Source: an uncultured virus (IMG/VR IMGVR_UViG_3300042549_004140) (lineage: Duplodnaviria; Heunggongvirae; Uroviricota; Caudoviricetes). Taken from it: a DNA stretch of 20,000 nt. The notes under the pieces are model-generated. The model did not search any database. It had not been told where the DNA came from and saw only the letters and a program-made list of their open reading frames with translations. Both the position numbers and the translations under genes were made by a program. Numbering within the stretch: position 1 is the first letter of the stretch; each line of letters opens with the position of its first letter. Shown here piece by piece: positions 1,108 through 5,422 of the stretch. Location of the stretch: IMG/VR virus record IMGVR_UViG_3300042549_004140; one strand, given 5' to 3'.

Positions 1108-1761
1108 GTGGACATAGAACCTACAGACTTAGCAATACTTTACGCACGCGTATCTACCCAACTACAGGTAAACGACGGCGTATCCCTTGACGTCCAAGAA
1201 CGTCAACTGCAGCAGGCAGCCGAGATGGCTGGCTACACAAACATTGAACTTGTCCGAGAAGAAGGCCGCTCTGGAAAAAATATTAGCGGACGTCCAGCAC
1301 TTACAGACGCACTAAAAAGATTAGATGCCGGAGAAGCTAAAGCACTATTTGTTACCCGCATTGATCGTCTAGCTCGCTCAACACAAGACTTCCTTAGCGT
1401 TGTAGACCGAGCCAACAAGAACGGTTGGCGTCTTGTGATGCTAGATCTAAACCTAGACACTTCTAGTTACCAAGGTCGCTTCGTAGTCACAATCATGTCA
1501 GCCCTAGCTGAGATGGAACGTGGGATCATTGCCGAGCGTCAGAAGGACGTACACAAAGACCGACGTGCACGCGGGGTAGTCTGGGGGGTTGACATGGGAC
1601 CAAAGAATAAGACCCCAGAAGAGATCAAACAGCGCGTTACTGCTGAACGATCTTCCGGGGCCTCATACCGCAAGATTGCAGACGGACTAAACCGAGATCA
1701 AGTGCCTACTCAGAATGGTCGTCAGTGGTATCCGACAACTGTTCGGAATCTTTTACTTTAG
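1108..1761 (+). CDS. Small serine recombinase (resolvase/invertase catalytic domain plus short recombinase-type DNA-binding domain)
   Basis: YARVST with catalytic Ser, SG..RP.L, RIDRLARS, AEMER..I.ER, and C-terminal SYRKIADGLN...W..TTVR. Confidence 0.93.
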   Translation: MDIEPTDLAILYARVSTQLQVNDGVSLDVQERQLQQAAEMAGYTNIELVREEGRSGKNISGRPALTDALKRLDAGEAKALFVTRIDRLARSTQDFLSVVDRANKNGWRLVMLDLNLDTSSYQGRFVVTIMSALAEMERGIIAERQKDVHKDRRARGVVWGVDMGPKNKTPEEIKQRVTAERSSGASYRKIADGLNRDQVPTQNGRQWYPTTVRNLLL

Positions 1762-2497
1762 TAGACATCTCATGTCTAAGCTGGACATCTTGAGCAAACC
1801 GACCACTGAACTGATAGTCACCGGCGTGGACCACATTTACCCACGGAGCGGCATAAACTTTACCGCCCATCTCGCGCCATTTACGGCAGAAGTGGTAGTC
1901 CTCGGATAGCAAAATCCCATCCTCTGTAATACTGGTAGCAAAGAACTCGGTAACCATCCGATCAAAGTCAAACTGACCGTTGGAACCATTCAAAGCATAC
2001 TTAGGACAGAGCGGCTCCATCTCTTCAAACACACTTCGCTTAATCAACATTAGACCGGTAGCAACTTCTGTAACCTCAACCGGCTCATTCAGTTTAATGG
2101 TAGATGTTCCAGGAAGAAGATTCATTGCAAAAATACCAGAGTAGTCAGCTAGGTTTTCTTTCCCAGCCAGCGCAGCGGCACGGACACCGTCCCAGTTAAT
2201 GTTTTTCATAGGATAAATCCCACCAATAACATCGGCCTCAATTTCAATCATTGCCACGACATCTGCAACATTAAAGCCCTCATCGGCATCGATAAAGAAG
2301 AGGTAGTCAGCGTCACTGTCTAAAAACTCCTTGACCAGATTATTTCTGGCCCTTGTGATAAGACTCTCATTGTAGATTTTAGAGAATGATATCTGATAAC
2401 CTTTTCGAGCAAGCTCAAAGGTAAGGTTGATAACGCTGTCCATGTAGATGCCTTTACAGTTCCCACCGTACATAGGTGTTGCAATGCGTATATGCAT
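1706..2497 (-). CDS. Glycosyltransferase (GT-A fold, phage type)
   Basis: Likely start is ATG 2497 (MHIRIATPMYGG) with AGGA SD. Motifs: ESLITRARN, DxD (FIDAD), ATGLMLIKR, LSEDYHFCRKW, VVHAG. Confidence 0.8.
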   Translation of the reverse strand: MHIRIATPMYGGNCKGIYMDSVINLTFELARKGYQISFSKIYNESLITRARNNLVKEFLDSDADYLFFIDADEGFNVADVVAMIEIEADVIGGIYPMKNINWDGVRAAALAGKENLADYSGIFAMNLLPGTSTIKLNEPVEVTEVATGLMLIKRSVFEEMEPLCPKYALNGSNGQFDFDRMVTEFFATSITEDGILLSEDYHFCRKWREMGGKVYAAPWVNVVHAGDYQFSGRFAQDVQLRHEMSTKVKDSEQLSDTTDDHSE

Positions 2498-2510
2498 AAA
2501 AATCCTAACT

Positions 2511-2547
2511 AAAAAGAAGGGGCCGGGAAGGGAGACTACCCGGCCCC
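2511..2547 (-). terminator. Rho-independent terminator
   Basis: GGGGCCGGG/CCCGGCCCC 9-bp stem (2519-2547), 11-nt loop, followed on the minus strand by TTCTTTTT. Confidence 0.85.
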
Positions 2548-2575
2548 ATTGTGCCTCTCTCCCAAGGAGCACAAT
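2511..2575 (-). ncRNA. Putative small structured RNA with two hairpins and complementary (kissing) loops
   Basis: Hairpin A is ATTGTG-CTC[CTTGGGAGA]GAG-G-CACAAT. Hairpin B is the terminator, with loop TAGTCTCCCTT. The loops are complementary (GGGAGA/TCTCCC) and a -10 TAGAAT lies at 2579-2584. Confidence 0.55.
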
Positions 2576-2621
2576 CACATTCTATCGCACAATCGATAGA
2601 AAGTGTTAAATATTTACTTTT

Positions 2622-5246
2622 TTAGTTAGCGAGTCTGCTAGCCAAGTTCCAGTCGATACCATTCGACTCAACAGCACGAGGAGCCATCACATACTCTTTC
2701 AGCTCAGCGCGAGAGCCCTGACCCATAATGGTTAGACCTCGGTCAGATAGCTTACGGTGGAATGCAATCTGAGTCATAGGACGCTCACCACGTTCATCAG
2801 ACCAAACTCGATACACCGCATAGACTTCTTTAACTCGAGTAGTCGCACCCTCAACCTGCTTCATTTCTTCGTTCAAGAACATACCAAGACGGTCTTCGTT
2901 CTTGCGGTACATGTCAGCAGCTTCAGCTACGGCAGTACACCAACCTAGAGGATCACGGGCAGAAGAACCTAGATACTTGATCGCGCCCTCAACGGCCCAA
3001 GCAAGCACGGCTGGCAGACCACCTTCAGGGTCAAACAAGTATGCCTTCAGGTCTGGATCGGAAGATTCAGGAACCTTGCTCCATGGAATCGGACGAATAC
3101 GACGCCACATAGCATCATCAGTGATCATAGGGCGGTGGTTAGTGGTAACCCACAGCTTAGCCTGGGCCTTGAATGTAAACGGCTTCTCGCCAGGCGAACG
3201 CGCCGAGATTTCAGATGAACCAGTCAACTTCTTAATAGAGTTTTCCTTGATGCGCTCAGACTCTGGCAACTCGTCAACCCAAACCATACGCTTACCACGA
3301 AGTTCGGCCCAGTGATATAGGTCGGTGCTGCTGGTAGCTCCACCATTGTCAGCAAGGATGCTTGAATCCAGCGGCCACGAATACTGCTGAGTTCCGAGAG
3401 CCTTAACGATTGCTTCAACAAATGTGTTCTTACCAGAGCCCGGAGGACCGTAGACCAAGAACATAAGGTCCTGATTATTTAGACCGGTGAGTGTGTAGCC
3501 AACAGCGCGCTGAATCCAATCCTGAAGCTCTTTGTCAGCACCGGTAGCAAAGTCTAGGAACTGCTCCCAGCGGACATTACGCATTCCAGGGGTATAGGCA
3601 ACAGGGGTGCGCTTCGTGATATGCAAGTCTGGACGTCCACGCAAAAGCTCACCGGTGCGTAGGTTAATAACACCATTGGCCACACCAAGAAGATACTCGT
3701 CGCCGTCCCATTCTTCTACAGGGACCACAACACGAGGGTCGGAGTTTGCGCTTTCGATTGCAGAGTTCAGGCGTGAGTTTGACTTAGCCTGATTAGCCCA
3801 CTTCAAGACTTCATTCTTTTTATCTTGGTCGTCGTATTTGGCAACCTCAGTGGCAATAATAGTTGGAACACGCTTAGCAACCTCACGCATACCGAGGTCC
3901 TCGGCATCTGGACGCCAGTAGCTGCCGTCCCAGATAAACCAACCGATACCTGGAGTGTATCGAATTGAGGACCCAAACGAGTCTACGATTCGACGACCGT
4001 TACCGATATCAGAGAGCGAACGCCTACCAGGCGAGCCACCCTCATGCTCAGAGATAGCGTCTGGGTCCTTGGGAACGTCAACGTTACCACTGCTGAACGC
4101 ATCGGCAATTGAAACACCGCTGTGGGCGGCGTCGGCCATAGCCGCGCCAATAGTGCCGTACACAACTTCGGAGTGGCGTTCGTTGCCTTCGGAATCTTTA
4201 ACCTTAGGGGCTGGATTAGATGGGGTAGATCTGGTCTCCTCTTGGTTACGCTTAGCCCAATCCTGAGCACCCGGCCAAATCAAATCGCCAACTGGGTTAT
4301 TAGCAACAAAATCAATAGCACGTCGAACGTGCATCAGTAGGCCACCCTGGCCCTCAAGCTCTAGCGGTGGACGAACCTTCTCGTGGTTGAAGCGAATCAT
4401 AAGAGTCTCTACTGCAAGCTTTCCAGCCTCAGAGTCCACGCCCATCTTGTTCGCAATTGCACATGCTAGCTTGTAGATGTCTACAGCACGAGAGCCTTCT
4501 TCAATACCTTCTTCAAGAAACTTGTTAATATCAACGCGCTCGTCGCCAGAGTTCAGATCCCCGAGCCAGCTCCAGTCACCTTGACCAAGGCTTGTCCCAC
4601 CACGGCCACGGCTGCTACGCTTACGGATTGCATTTAAAAGTTCTTCGGGGGCCTCAGCCATACGCATTTCCCATGGAGATTGTCCAGGTGCCCAGTCATA
4701 TGTAACACCAGACCCGTGACGAGACGGCGACACCATAACGTAGCCGTTGTACTTAATGTCGATACCGTTCAAACCATAAGACTTTAGGTTTCCCATAAAC
4801 TGGTCGCCGTCTTCGACCCTGAAGTACAGGTGACGTCCACGGTTTTGAGAACCCTGATAGCTATACAAACCAGTCAGCGCTTCTACAGTCTTTGGAAGAG
4901 TTATCCCAAGTAGCTCTTCAAACTTCTCAAACGACTCGATACCGCCAGAGCGCGGGTCAATGTCGACAACGATAAATCCAGAACCCTGGCAGTAAACACC
5001 AATGTTGTTTTCAGGATTGCGATCCCACCAAGACTCTACGATTTCTATCTCATCCGTAGCGCGGTTATTCCAATCGCCAATCTGGGGGTGCTTACCAATG
5101 TCCTTTGGCTCAGCGTGCTGACCATTACAGGTACAGCGACCTCCATCTGTAATACCGAAGCAAGGGAGAATCTTCCATCCCTGCTTGGCGTACCAAACAG
5201 ACCCTTTTGCTAGTCGTTCAGCGTGCGTCGTTTTGGGAGATGACAT
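2622..5246 (-). CDS. Bifunctional primase/polymerase (Prim-Pol) fused to a D5/P4-type SF3 helicase
   Basis: N-terminal Prim-Pol motifs (GKHP, NIG, VVDID, GRHLYF, GIDIK, GYV..PS.H). D5_N-like region (SDIGNGRR, W..WDG..W). Walker A GPPGSGKNT, Walker B WVDE, IKKLTG, TNHRP, AMWRR. Confidence 0.93.
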   Translation of the reverse strand: MSSPKTTHAERLAKGSVWYAKQGWKILPCFGITDGGRCTCNGQHAEPKDIGKHPQIGDWNNRATDEIEIVESWWDRNPENNIGVYCQGSGFIVVDIDPRSGGIESFEKFEELLGITLPKTVEALTGLYSYQGSQNRGRHLYFRVEDGDQFMGNLKSYGLNGIDIKYNGYVMVSPSRHGSGVTYDWAPGQSPWEMRMAEAPEELLNAIRKRSSRGRGGTSLGQGDWSWLGDLNSGDERVDINKFLEEGIEEGSRAVDIYKLACAIANKMGVDSEAGKLAVETLMIRFNHEKVRPPLELEGQGGLLMHVRRAIDFVANNPVGDLIWPGAQDWAKRNQEETRSTPSNPAPKVKDSEGNERHSEVVYGTIGAAMADAAHSGVSIADAFSSGNVDVPKDPDAISEHEGGSPGRRSLSDIGNGRRIVDSFGSSIRYTPGIGWFIWDGSYWRPDAEDLGMREVAKRVPTIIATEVAKYDDQDKKNEVLKWANQAKSNSRLNSAIESANSDPRVVVPVEEWDGDEYLLGVANGVINLRTGELLRGRPDLHITKRTPVAYTPGMRNVRWEQFLDFATGADKELQDWIQRAVGYTLTGLNNQDLMFLVYGPPGSGKNTFVEAIVKALGTQQYSWPLDSSILADNGGATSSTDLYHWAELRGKRMVWVDELPESERIKENSIKKLTGSSEISARSPGEKPFTFKAQAKLWVTTNHRPMITDDAMWRRIRPIPWSKVPESSDPDLKAYLFDPEGGLPAVLAWAVEGAIKYLGSSARDPLGWCTAVAEAADMYRKNEDRLGMFLNEEMKQVEGATTRVKEVYAVYRVWSDERGERPMTQIAFHRKLSDRGLTIMGQGSRAELKEYVMAPRAVESNGIDWNLASRLAN

Positions 5247-5422
5247 ACGTATAAACCTTTCTGTAGTGTTATCAAAGACGATAATACACCCTAGGCGCTA
5301 AAAATCAAAATTGAATACAGCATCTGAGTGTCTTGAAGTGTAGCACGCCTAGGGCTAATCACTAAGTACAGGCTGTTGTACAATTATACATAGCCCGTGA
5401 AAACCCCATTGGATTCCCTATC

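What the first reader, a model, noticed from the sequence alone, without database searches (positions are those of the whole stretch)
2511..2584. Candidate ~62-nt kissing-loop small RNA with its own promoter and terminator, between the primase and a glycosyltransferase
Seen: the minus strand reads TAGAAT-gtgatt-GTGCTCCTTGGGAGAGAGGCACAAT-GGGGCCGGG-TAGTCTCCCTT-CCCGGCCCC-TTCTTTTT. This gives a -10 box, a predicted start near 2572, two abutting hairpins and a U-tail. The first loop (GGGAGA) is perfectly complementary to the terminator loop (TCTCCC). A plain terminator needs neither an 11-nt loop nor a partner hairpin. Inference: this is a discrete phage ncRNA that forms an intramolecular loop-loop pseudoknot. 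Alternatively, if the stems stack coaxially, it could form intermolecular kissing oligomers, as phi29 pRNA does. It might partner the neighbouring primase or serine recombinase, or act as a decoy or anti-defence RNA. I do not recognise it as a named Rfam family.
Basis: partly seen in the sequence, partly recalled or inferred. Interest (0 to 1): 0.8.

Follow-up and report, generated by a model that had tools for sequence, protein, structure and literature searches.

The report
Conserved phage small RNA behind primase
Behind the primase gene of a large family of uncultured freshwater phages sits a small RNA module, unmatched in Rfam, whose first hairpin always shows the loop GGGAGA, and in some lineages that loop matches the start of the primase message itself.

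Summary
The sequence is exactly as described (window 2511-2584, minus strand): TAGAAT, a 22-28 nt hairpin (hp1), a 9-bp GC hairpin with an 11-nt loop (hp2) and a U-tail.

It is a real, conserved element:
- One copy per genome, always just after the PrimPol/D5 primase-helicase gene, in dozens of lineages of probably actinobacterial phages.
- The hp1 loop GGGAGA is nearly invariant and the hp1 stem covaries.
- A TAnnnT hexamer sits at a fixed distance upstream in 46 of 54 distinct sequences.
- There is no Rfam match.

Only 7 of 59 distinct hp1/hp2 pairs keep 5 or more complementary bases, and many hp2 loops are tetraloops.

New here: the hp1 loop is complementary to a CU box (UCUCCCAA) at codons 3-5 of the primase mRNA. 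This holds in the window and in 11 of 47 distinct hp1/start-region combinations (0.79 expected). The box is encoded in two different reading frames and once lies in the 5' leader.

Best reading: a small regulatory RNA, sharing the primase 3' end, with a G/A-rich seed loop. No RNA data could be obtained, so its function is inferred.

This scan found the same element before on other DNA (e1-6088840), with the same verdict on the loops.

The parts
2579..2584 (-). -10-like hexamer TAGAAT (promoter of the small RNA; predicted start about G2572)
   Evidence: Sequence. A TAnnnT hexamer ends 10-18 nt before the loop motif in 46 of 54 distinct relatives, against 12% at random places in the same loci and 21% in AT-rich stretches. 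The commonest forms are TAGAAT, TAGTAT and TAGAGT. The transcription start itself is inferred; no RNA data exist.
2548..2575 (-). hp1: hairpin (AUU)GUGCUCCUU-GGGAGA-GAGGCAC(AAU). The conserved part of the element; the loop GGGAGA lies at 2558-2563.
   Evidence: Folds. Covariance model R1 finds one copy in 25 of 30 sources. Inner helix on 54 distinct sequences: 80.1% of cells paired, and 39 double-change cells against 13.2 in shuffles, 0 of 500 shuffles as high. The five loop columns G14, G16, A17, G18 and A19 are at least 90% conserved and G15 is invariant.
2519..2547 (-). hp2: GC hairpin GGGGCCGGG-uagucucccuu-CCCGGCCCC. The loop UCUCCC at 2530-2535 is complementary to the hp1 loop.
   Evidence: Every relative has a strong GC hairpin here (-18 to -40 kcal/mol), but with a different sequence and loop.
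2511..2518 (-). U-tail UUCUUUUU. Together with hp2 it forms a canonical intrinsic terminator in this phage.
   Evidence: Among relatives only 6 of 48 (same-strand downstream gene) and 2 of 8 (convergent downstream gene) have 5 or more U in the 8 nt after hp2.
2581..2600 (-). hp0: upstream hairpin UCUAUCG-auugug-CGAUAGA. Its 3' arm overlaps the -10 hexamer. Role open: 3' structure of the primase mRNA, or an operator-like inverted repeat.
   Evidence: The stem shows compensatory variants: UUUACUG/CAGUAGA in L005, UCUACCG/CGGUAGA in L170, UCUACAU/AUGUAGA in L186. Folding z is below -2 in 13 of 41 lineages, so it is frequent but not universal.
2622..5246 (-). Primase-helicase gene (874 aa). The RNA module always follows its stop codon.
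   Evidence: Pfam Prim-Pol 1.8e-30, D5_N 6.5e-29, DUF5906 1.8e-13. PHROG 1156 DNA primase, 4e-120.
5233..5240 (-). CU box UCUCCCAA in codons 3-5 of the primase mRNA (+6 to +13 from the A of AUG). It is complementary to UUGGGAGA of hp1 and is the candidate target site.
   Evidence: It is the only complement of 8 or more nt to the hp1 apex that lies at a gene start in the 75.6-kb record. In relatives, 11 of 47 distinct combinations have 7 or more nt, against 0.79 expected.
1706..2497 (-). Downstream gene (263 aa, phrog_1574, function unknown). It starts 13 nt after the U-tail, so it can only be transcribed by read-through of hp2.
   Evidence: The same gene (N-terminal motif PMYGG) follows the module at 17-33 nt in 48 of 57 distinct relatives.

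Best explanation
This is a small regulatory RNA gene that shares the 3' end of the primase gene. It belongs to a family of large (about 130 kb) uncultured freshwater phages, probably of Actinobacteria.

Proposed anatomy and action:
- An actinobacterial-type -10 (TAGAAT) starts transcription at the foot of hp1, near G2572.
- The RNA is hp1 plus hp2. In this phage it ends at the U-tail, giving about 61 nt. Some read-through into the downstream gene is needed for that gene's expression. Primase transcripts that run to the same terminator carry hp0, hp1 and hp2 as their 3' UTR.
- The working part is the purine-rich, Shine-Dalgarno-like hp1 loop (GGGAGA), which acts as a base-pairing seed for CU-rich partners.
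- The one partner that sequence evidence supports is the CU box UCUCCCAA at codons 3-5 of the primase mRNA. Pairing there lies inside the ribosome footprint and would lower primase translation. That would be a feedback on the replication protein.
- The hp2-loop UCUCCC that pairs with the same seed is a feature of this clade (a possible built-in competitor), not of the family.

Shown: the conservation, covariation, single copy, position and complementarities.
Inferred: the transcription start, the discrete RNA, the pairing in vivo and the direction of the effect.

Step odds: real selected RNA structure about 0.9; own transcript about 0.55; primase start as a true target in the lineages that carry the box about 0.4.
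For: Family and copy number
- Primase relatives were fetched (42 loci; 80 loci; 80 loci).
- Model R1 finds exactly one match in 25 of 30 sources, always after the primase stop.
- It finds one strong match in each of 5 whole records, including a complete 132.6-kb genome.

Structure
- Double-change cells are 16 against 6.1 in shuffles on 24 sequences and 39 against 13.2 on 54 sequences, each with 0 of 500 shuffles as high.
- Stems are fully replaced in distant lineages. Examples are GCGCCA/UGGCGC in the published genome DSL-LC01, and CGCUCG/CGGGCG and GACGUCU/AGGCGUC.
- 50 of 216 inner-helix cells are G-U pairs. These would be A-C mismatches on the other strand, so the folded strand is the primase-sense strand.

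Promoter
- TAnnnT lies at a fixed distance in 46 of 54 distinct sequences, against a background of 12-21%.

Independence from the downstream gene
- 8 of 57 distinct sequences have convergent genes after hp2 and still keep the hexamer, hp1 and hp2.

No conserved ORF
- Start codons after the loop are not conserved (read by eye).

Target
- A perfect complement of 7 or more nt lies within -40..+30 of the primase start in 11 of 47 distinct combinations, against 0.79 expected. The binomial tail is 3e-10, not corrected for phylogeny.
- The box is read as Ser-Pro (TCT CCC) in most of these lineages but as Leu-Ser-His (CTC TCC CAC) in L170 and L186. In L012 it lies at -29 in the leader, as a 10-nt match.
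- 0 of 11 lineages without hp1 have 6 or more nt.
Against: - No transcript evidence exists. No RNA run was listed, so the start, the end and the very existence of a discrete RNA are untested.
- 36 of 47 combinations lack the CU box. These include all five stand-alone lineages whose primase start was seen (L007, L008, L194, L199, DSL-LC01). Primase pairing therefore cannot be the universal reason why GGGAGA is conserved.
- The 11 positives fall in about 6 clades and at least 3 configurations, so the number of independent events is small.
- Most relatives have no U-tract after hp2, and the same downstream gene follows in 48 of 57. In many lineages the transcript may therefore simply be that gene's leader.
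- Some lineages lack the hexamer at the usual spacing (L012, L080, L081, L120).
- In the minimum-energy fold part of the seed is paired.
Confidence: 0.45

Rival explanations
1. Cis-acting leader. The TAGAAT promoter is the promoter of the downstream phrog_1574 gene, and hp1 plus hp2 are its structured 5' leader. hp1 would be a 5'-terminal stem-loop that shows a Shine-Dalgarno-like sequence and protects the mRNA by binding a ribosome. This is the aprE-leader / STAB-SD type known from Bacillus (recalled; I saw only the title of the aprE paper, in the reference list of PMC10470900). hp2 would be an attenuator or decay barrier.
For: - The same gene follows hp2 at 17-33 nt in 48 of 57 distinct sequences, and only 6 of those 48 have a U-rich tail.
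- There is no room for another promoter between hp2 and the start codon.
- The fixed distance between the hexamer and the hairpin foot is what a 5'-end protector needs.
- A second promoter plus GGGAGA-hexaloop hairpin stands before another ORF in one relative (L049, 21.7 bits).
Against: - 8 of 57 distinct sequences have no same-strand gene downstream. They keep hp1 with perfectly compensated, highly diverged stems and mostly keep the hexamer.
- The window's hp2 is a strong canonical terminator.
- There is only one strong copy per genome, although a general stabiliser could serve many genes.
Confidence: 0.2
2. Decoy or sponge. The G-rich loop titrates a C-rich host partner. That partner could be a C-rich-loop small RNA of the 6C/B11 type found in Actinobacteria, or the anti-Shine-Dalgarno end of 16S rRNA.
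For: - GGGAGA is nearly invariant across lineages that must infect different hosts. That fits a universal partner.
- All loop variants keep GGAG or GGUG.
- B11/6C represses targets through C-rich loops that pair with G-rich ribosome-binding sites in mycobacteria (PMC10470900, passages read).
- The module persists without the primase CU box and without the downstream gene.
Against: - There is no direct evidence. The host is unknown, and no host RNA could be compared.
- There is only one G-rich loop.
- Exact GGGAGA is not the usual ribosome-binding sequence in this genome: 0 of 53 gene starts have it, although GGAG is enriched at 8 against 2.4 expected.
Confidence: 0.15
3. The two loops pair with each other, either within one molecule (a pseudoknot) or between molecules (pRNA-like oligomers), and this contact is what the RNA is for.
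For: - There is a perfect 6-bp loop-loop complement in the window.
- UCUCC is kept in the hp2 loop of the window's close relatives L004, L005 and L055. It is also kept in L056, whose hp2 stem differs.
- CUCUC occurs in L022 and L029.
- Overall 7 of 59 distinct pairs have 5 or more nt, against 3.27 in loop shuffles, P = 0.016.
Against: - 52 of 59 distinct pairs lack it, and many hp2 loops are stable tetraloops.
- The sister lineages L002 and L006 have lost it.
- Some lineages carry a purine-rich hp2 loop of the same sense (L072, L087, L205).
- For 6 or more nt there is no excess: 1 observed against 0.77 expected.
- The link between the two hairpins is only 0-3 nt, which strains a side-by-side arrangement (inference).
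- There is no Rfam pRNA match.
Confidence: 0.07
4. DNA-level signal. The hairpins form in single-stranded DNA and serve as a priming or origin signal for the neighbouring primase.
For: - The element lies next to the primase gene in every lineage.
- There are three hairpins in a row.
- Stem covariation alone does not tell RNA from single-stranded DNA.
Against: - 23% of inner-helix cells are G-U/G-T wobbles, which are poorly tolerated in DNA hairpins.
- The layout of a -10-like hexamer followed by a hairpin and U-tail is that of a transcription unit.
- There are no iterons or an AT-rich unwinding block beyond ordinary intergenic composition, and no GC-skew turn at 2.5 kb.
Confidence: 0.05

Closest known systems
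3'-end-derived small RNAs with their own promoter (type I, such as DapZ and MicL of enterobacteria; recalled, not tested here)
   Same: The promoter lies at or inside the end of the upstream gene, the terminator is shared with that gene's mRNA, and a short conserved seed sits in an otherwise variable RNA.
   Different: This one is phage-encoded, in a probable actinobacterial host. The seed is purine-rich, and the candidate target is the parental mRNA's own start region. No expression data exist.
G-rich sponge small RNAs RosA (Bacillus subtilis) and RsaI (Staphylococcus aureus).
   Same: A small RNA that shows an unpaired G-rich motif able to pair with C/U-rich partners.
   Different: Here there is a single G-rich hexaloop, the RNA is phage-encoded, and no C-rich partner RNA has been identified. 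The only partner with sequence support is an mRNA start region.
Phage antisense and short regulatory RNAs: lambda OOP, P1/P7 c4, P4 CI (recalled)
   Same: Short phage RNAs of about 60-80 nt with their own promoter or processing and a terminator hairpin. c4 and CI act by short complementarities on targets in the same transcription unit.
   Different: This RNA is not antisense to an overlapping gene and has no sequence or Rfam relation to them. Its target box lies 2.6 kb upstream, at the start of the preceding gene.
phi29 pRNA (Rfam RF00044)
   Same: A phage RNA with two loops that can pair.
   Different: - No covariance-model match.
- About 61 nt rather than 117-174 nt (pRNA size recalled).
- It lies after a primase gene of a roughly 130-kb phage, not in a phi29-like packaging context.
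- The loop complementarity is not conserved.
icaR mRNA 3'UTR-5'UTR pairing in Staphylococcus aureus (recalled)
   Same: A motif in the 3' UTR pairs with the translation start region of the same mRNA and lowers translation.
   Different: The polarity is reversed. Here the 3' end carries the Shine-Dalgarno-like motif and the start region carries the CU box. A separate promoter would also let it act in trans.

Membership tests
phi29 pRNA (RF00044) | Match to the Rfam covariance model | tested here: not met
   There were no matches at gathering score in the window or in 20 related loci. pRNA was also not among the 5 weak matches at E up to 10 on 2440-2680.
phi29 pRNA (RF00044) | Conserved complementary loops that interlock neighbouring molecules | tested here: not met
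   7 of 59 distinct hp1/hp2 pairs have 5 or more nt of complementarity, and 1 of 59 has 6 or more, against 0.77 expected.
Rho-independent terminator (hp2) | GC-rich stem followed by a U-tract | tested here: met
   The window has a 9-bp all-GC stem followed by UUCUUUUU. In relatives the tail has 5 or more U of 8 in only 8 of 56 (6 of 48 plus 2 of 8), so this holds for the window but not for the family.
Independent small RNA gene | Own promoter | tested here: inconclusive
   A TAnnnT hexamer lies at a fixed distance in 46 of 54 distinct sequences, against a 12-21% background. No -35 element was sought and no start-site data exist.
Independent small RNA gene | Discrete transcript of the predicted size | not testable with these tools
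   No RNA run was listed for the region.
Independent small RNA gene | Conserved structure with covariation and no conserved ORF | tested here: met
   Covariation is shown. Start codons after the loop are not conserved among lineages (read by eye).
Base-pairing regulator of the primase mRNA | Seed complementary to the target's translation start region, kept across lineages | tested here: inconclusive
   11 of 47 distinct combinations have 7 or more nt, against 0.79 expected. The box occurs in two reading frames and at one leader site, but it is absent in 36 of 47.
ANTAR dual-hexaloop RNA | Two hexaloops with A at position 1 and G at position 4 (definition recalled) | tested here: not met
   The hp1 loop is GGGAGA, with G at position 1 and A at position 4. 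The hp2 loops vary in length from 3 to 22 nt.
CsrA/RsmE-binding hairpin | GGA in a hairpin loop together with a CsrA-family protein | tested here: inconclusive
   GGA is present in the loop. No CsrA (PF02599) was found in the phage record, which is only 51% complete. The host is unknown.
Any Rfam 15 family | Covariance-model match at gathering score | tested here: not met
   0 matches. The best sub-threshold matches were atoC at 18.1 bits (cut-off 50) and CyaR at 16 bits (cut-off 47).
G-rich sponge small RNA (RosA/RsaI type) | Pairing with C-rich small RNAs of the host | not testable with these tools
   The host genome is unknown and no host RNA was compared.

The most novel reading that the evidence does not exclude
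The module is a replication-dosage feedback device. A small RNA made from the 3' end of the primase gene uses a Shine-Dalgarno-mimic loop to pair with a CU box at codons 3-5 of the primase mRNA and throttle its translation. In lineages without the box, the same loop would act on other C/U-rich partners, such as host 6C-type RNAs or the ribosome.
Probability: 0.17. Interest if true: 0.7.

Novelty: new member of a known kind. Interest (0 to 1): 0.55.

Why it matters
Little is on record about regulatory RNAs of actinobacterial phages; the searches and papers I checked describe none at this locus. This element is a clean, widespread and easily recognised RNA family with no Rfam match, found in abundant freshwater phages. 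It has an invariant seed and a testable candidate target, the start of the phage's own primase-helicase mRNA. If the pairing is real, it would be an RNA feedback on a phage replication protein. It would also be an example of a 3'-end RNA acting on its parental gene. If it is instead a decoy for C-rich host RNAs or for ribosomes, it would be a new phage take-over tool. Either way, the covariance model and the list of lineages make the question directly testable.

Tried and rejected
- Expression data: no RNA holder was listed for window 1700-5300, so no reads were laid.
- T7-type promoter (the GGGAGA start): rejected. There is one copy per genome and the flanks covary as a stem.
- Small ORF behind the loop: rejected. 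Start codons are present in some lineages (window, L005, L007) and absent in others (L004, L006, L010, L016).
- PyrR site, CRISPR-repeat mimic, riboswitch: nothing in Rfam even at E up to 10. The exception is a chance CRISPR-DR22 match on the other strand, inside the primase gene.
- Other targets in the own genome: the two 10-nt complements lie on the non-coding strand of a giant ORF and inside a coding region, not at gene starts.
- RNAduplex ranking of all gene starts: uninformative, because the 5' arm CUCCUU of hp1 itself pairs with ribosome-binding sites.
- Alternative targets in lineages without the CU box: only scattered 7-9-mers, and nothing recurrent.
- Co-occurrence of the CU box and a complementary hp2 loop: 3/8 against 2/30, Fisher P = 0.096, not significant.
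- Isolated Microbacterium phages (primase 50-53% identical): they lack the module, and convergent genes abut the primase.
- Primase starts of the metagenome-only lineages: could not be fetched, because the records are not held.
- csRNA catalogue (PMC10690425): six contig numbers were not found in the supplementary files that could be searched. Three files were not searched, so the motif may still be listed there.
- Literature searches: searches found no description of this element.

Full report
**1. Observation**

The parts are:
- TAGAAT (2584-2579) and a 6-nt spacer.
- hp1 (2575-2548), with GGGAGA at 2563-2558.
- hp2 (2547-2519), with an 11-nt loop holding UCUCCC (2535-2530).
- UUCUUUUU (2518-2511).

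The 71-nt stretch folds into the two abutting hairpins at -34.6 kcal/mol. The z-score is -3.6, and 0 of 200 shuffles are as stable.

A third hairpin, hp0 (2600-2581), lies upstream, and its 3' arm overlaps the TAGAAT.

The 6-nt loop-loop complement is real but weak as evidence. It arises in 1.0% of random 11-mers and in 5.8% of shuffles of the same loop.

The upstream gene is a Prim-Pol/D5_N/DUF5906 primase-helicase. The downstream gene is phrog_1574, of unknown function. It has no Pfam, NCBIfam or PDB sequence match, so 'glycosyltransferase' is unconfirmed.

**2. Source**

- The window lies in a 75.6-kb virus record estimated to be 51% complete.
- The nearest named relatives by primase are the metagenome-assembled Actinomycetia phage DSL-LC01 (66% identity over the part held) and Microbacterium phages of 186-195 kb (50-53%).
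- The DSL-LC01 paper predicts an actinobacterial host and mentions no non-coding RNA (PMC10611076, passages read).
- An actinobacterial host fits a promoter that rests on a TAnnnT -10, and terminator hairpins without U-tracts. Both points are recalled knowledge.

**3. The element is a conserved family**

Primase relatives were collected from IMG/VR (42 loci; 80 loci) and from metagenomes (80 loci).

*Position and copy number.* In most of them the stretch after the primase stop holds the same three parts: a TAnnnT hexamer, a short hairpin with GGGAGA in its loop, and a strong GC hairpin.
- A covariance model of the hexamer plus hp1 (R1) finds exactly one match in 25 of 30 sources, always at the primase 3' end.
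- It finds one strong match in each of five whole records, one of which is a complete 132.6-kb genome.
- DSL-LC01 also carries the element, with a fully different stem (GCGCCA-GGGAGAGA-UGGCGC). R1 missed it and I found it by eye.
- The isolated Microbacterium phages lack it.

*Loop and stem.* On 54 distinct hp1 cores, G15 of the loop is invariant and five further loop columns (G14, G16, A17, G18, A19) are at least 90% conserved.
- The four inner pairs are paired in 80.1% of cells.
- There are 39 double-change cells against 13.2 +/- 4.4 in shuffles (0 of 500 as high), and lower values for every slid control.
- The 24-sequence set gave 16 against 6.1.
- The outer helix could not be put into common columns, because bulges differ between lineages.
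- 50 of 216 inner-helix cells are G-U pairs. The folded strand is therefore the primase-sense strand, and RNA is more likely than DNA.

*Promoter-like hexamer.* A TAnnnT hexamer ends 10-18 nt before the loop motif in 46 of 54 distinct sequences. The rate at random places is 12%, or 21% in AT-rich stretches.
- Four of the eight misses (L057, L059, L060, L061) have an enlarged loop that shifts the distance.
- L012, L080, L081 and L120 lack it at that spacing.

*Rfam.* No Rfam 15 family matches the window or 20 diverse loci. The best sub-threshold scores are 18 and 16 bits.

**4. The kissing idea**

I took the minimum-energy hairpin loop of hp2 in each of 59 distinct hp1/hp2 pairs.
- 7 pairs have 5 or more Watson-Crick complementary bases to the hp1 apex: the window, L004, L055, L056, L010, L022 and L029.
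- Loop shuffles give 3.27 on average (P = 0.016).
- For 6 or more bases there is 1 pair against 0.77 expected (P = 0.56).
- The other 52 have unrelated loops. These are often tetraloops such as GAAA, GCAA and GUGA, or even purine-rich loops of the same sense (L072, L087).

Within the window's own clade UCUCC is kept while the rest of the loop changes, and in L056 the hp2 stem changes as well. The sister lineages L002 and L006 have lost it.

The contact is therefore at most a clade-specific extra.

**5.

In the own genome, the only complement of 8 or more nt to the hp1 apex that lies at a gene start is UCUCCCAA. It occupies codons 3-5 of the primase gene (window 5240-5233).

I then took every locus that holds the whole primase gene, 91 loci, of which 77 had an hp1 candidate. 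I set the start codon by the conserved WYA motif and compared the hp1 apex (14 nt) with -40..+30 of the start.
- Of 47 distinct combinations, 11 have a perfect complement of 7-10 nt.
- The expectation from all other 70-nt windows of the same loci is 0.79. The binomial tail is 3e-10, not corrected for shared ancestry.
- The 47 include two doubtful hp1 calls (L030, L189), one wrong hp1 pick (L205) and one mis-set start (L026). All four count as negatives.

The positives fall into about six clades:
- L002/L003/L005.
- L022/L029.
- L016, with weaker 5-6-nt matches in L014, L015 and L034.
- L012.
- L149/L151/L156.
- L170/L186.

The box is read as Ser-Pro (TCT CCC) in most of them but as Leu-Ser-His (CTC TCC CAC) in L170 and L186. 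In L012 it lies at -29 in the leader or upstream ORF, as a 10-nt match. That match includes a pair with a base found only in that lineage's hp1.

Conservation of the nucleotides across reading frames and positions argues for selection on the RNA, not on the protein.

None of 11 lineages without hp1 has 6 or more nt.

Against a universal role, 36 of 47 combinations lack the box. These include every stand-alone lineage whose primase start I could see, and DSL-LC01. No recurrent alternative site was found in those loci.

**6. Small RNA or leader?**

After hp2, 48 of 57 distinct sequences have the same same-strand gene (phrog_1574) 17-33 nt away. Eight have convergent genes and one has another gene.

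Only 8 of 56 have 5 or more U in the tail. The window is one of those 8.
- For the window a terminated RNA of about 61 nt is plausible.
- In many relatives, transcripts may run on into the downstream gene.
- In the window itself that gene can only be reached by read-through, because only 13 nt separate the U-tail from its ATG.

The eight lineages with convergent downstream genes carry some of the most diverged yet perfectly compensated hp1 stems, and most of them keep the hexamer. The module is therefore under selection without any downstream gene.

This is why I rank 'small RNA' above 'leader', though not by much.

**7. What the loop resembles**

- GGGAGA contains GGAG, and every variant keeps GGAG or GGUG.
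- In some relatives GGGAGA is used as a real ribosome-binding site.
- In the window's genome the usual sites are of the AGGA/AAGG/GGAG type, and exact GGGAGA occurs at 0 of 53 starts.
- A Shine-Dalgarno-like loop could pair with CU-rich mRNA boxes, with C-rich host small RNAs, or with 16S rRNA. B11/6C of mycobacteria acts through C-rich loops on G-rich ribosome-binding sites (PMC10470900, passages read).

It named the G-rich sponges RosA and RsaI as closest. I could not test the sponge idea.

**8. Verdict**

- The reading 'discrete phage ncRNA with promoter and terminator' is supported by comparative evidence but not by RNA data.
- The kissing or pRNA reading is not supported as a family trait.
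- The element is a new RNA family of a known kind, a phage small regulatory RNA at the 3' end of a gene.
- My best mechanism is seed pairing with the primase start region. It rests on complementarity statistics in a minority of lineages and needs the experiments listed under decisive next steps.

I found no description of this element in searches. It may still be among the unnamed candidates of PMC10690425, whose supplements I could only partly search.

Noticed in passing
window 2581-2600 (-): hp0 is an inverted repeat (UCUAUCG/CGAUAGA) whose 3' arm covers the -10 hexamer. Its central bases change in a compensatory way between lineages (L005, L170, L186). It could be a 3' structure of the primase mRNA or an operator. 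Folding z is below -2 in 13 of 41 lineages.
   Followed up: partly
window 5281-5296 (-): A conserved motif CCTAGGGTGTAnTAT lies about 35-45 nt upstream of the primase start in many lineages (window, L002, L007, L008, L018, L022, L029). It is probably the primase promoter. The promoter scan lists TTGATT-16-TATTAT at 5308-5281.
   Followed up: no
L012, L014, L016, L034: about 45 nt before the primase start: A short upstream ORF (MKRQ.../MERH..., 10-13 codons) ends just before the primase start in several lineages. In L012 the CU box lies inside it.
   Followed up: no
L049:1501-1547 (-): A second TAGAAT plus a hairpin with a GGGAGA hexaloop (21.7 bits with R1) lies in the leader of an 87-aa ORF in the genome of L010. 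It has no GC hairpin after it.
   Followed up: partly
L057-L061, L137-L147; L081, L083, L090, L199: In these variants hp1 has an enlarged loop, with 8-11 extra bases inserted 5' of GGGAGA (GGGAUCUAUUC-GGGAGA and GGGCCAAU-GGGAGA).
   Followed up: no
L072, L087, L205 (hp2): The hp2 loop carries a second purine-rich motif (AGAGAUA; in L205 UUGGGAGAGAUA). This has the same sense as the hp1 loop rather than being complementary to it.
   Followed up: no
window 1108-1761 (+) and 1706-2497 (-): A 217-aa serine recombinase (Resolvase domain plus only the first 44 positions of the Recombinase domain) converges on the phrog_1574 gene and overlaps it by 56 nt. DSL-LC01 also has a recombinase next to the module.
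   Followed up: no
own genome G000:C1:16069-28953 (+), outside the window: A single open reading frame of 4294 codons.
   Followed up: no
L052:1770-1960 and L206 (about 250 nt after the primase stop): In DSL-LC01 and L206 the module lies 220-250 nt after the primase stop, with an unannotated stretch in between that may hold a small ORF.
   Followed up: no
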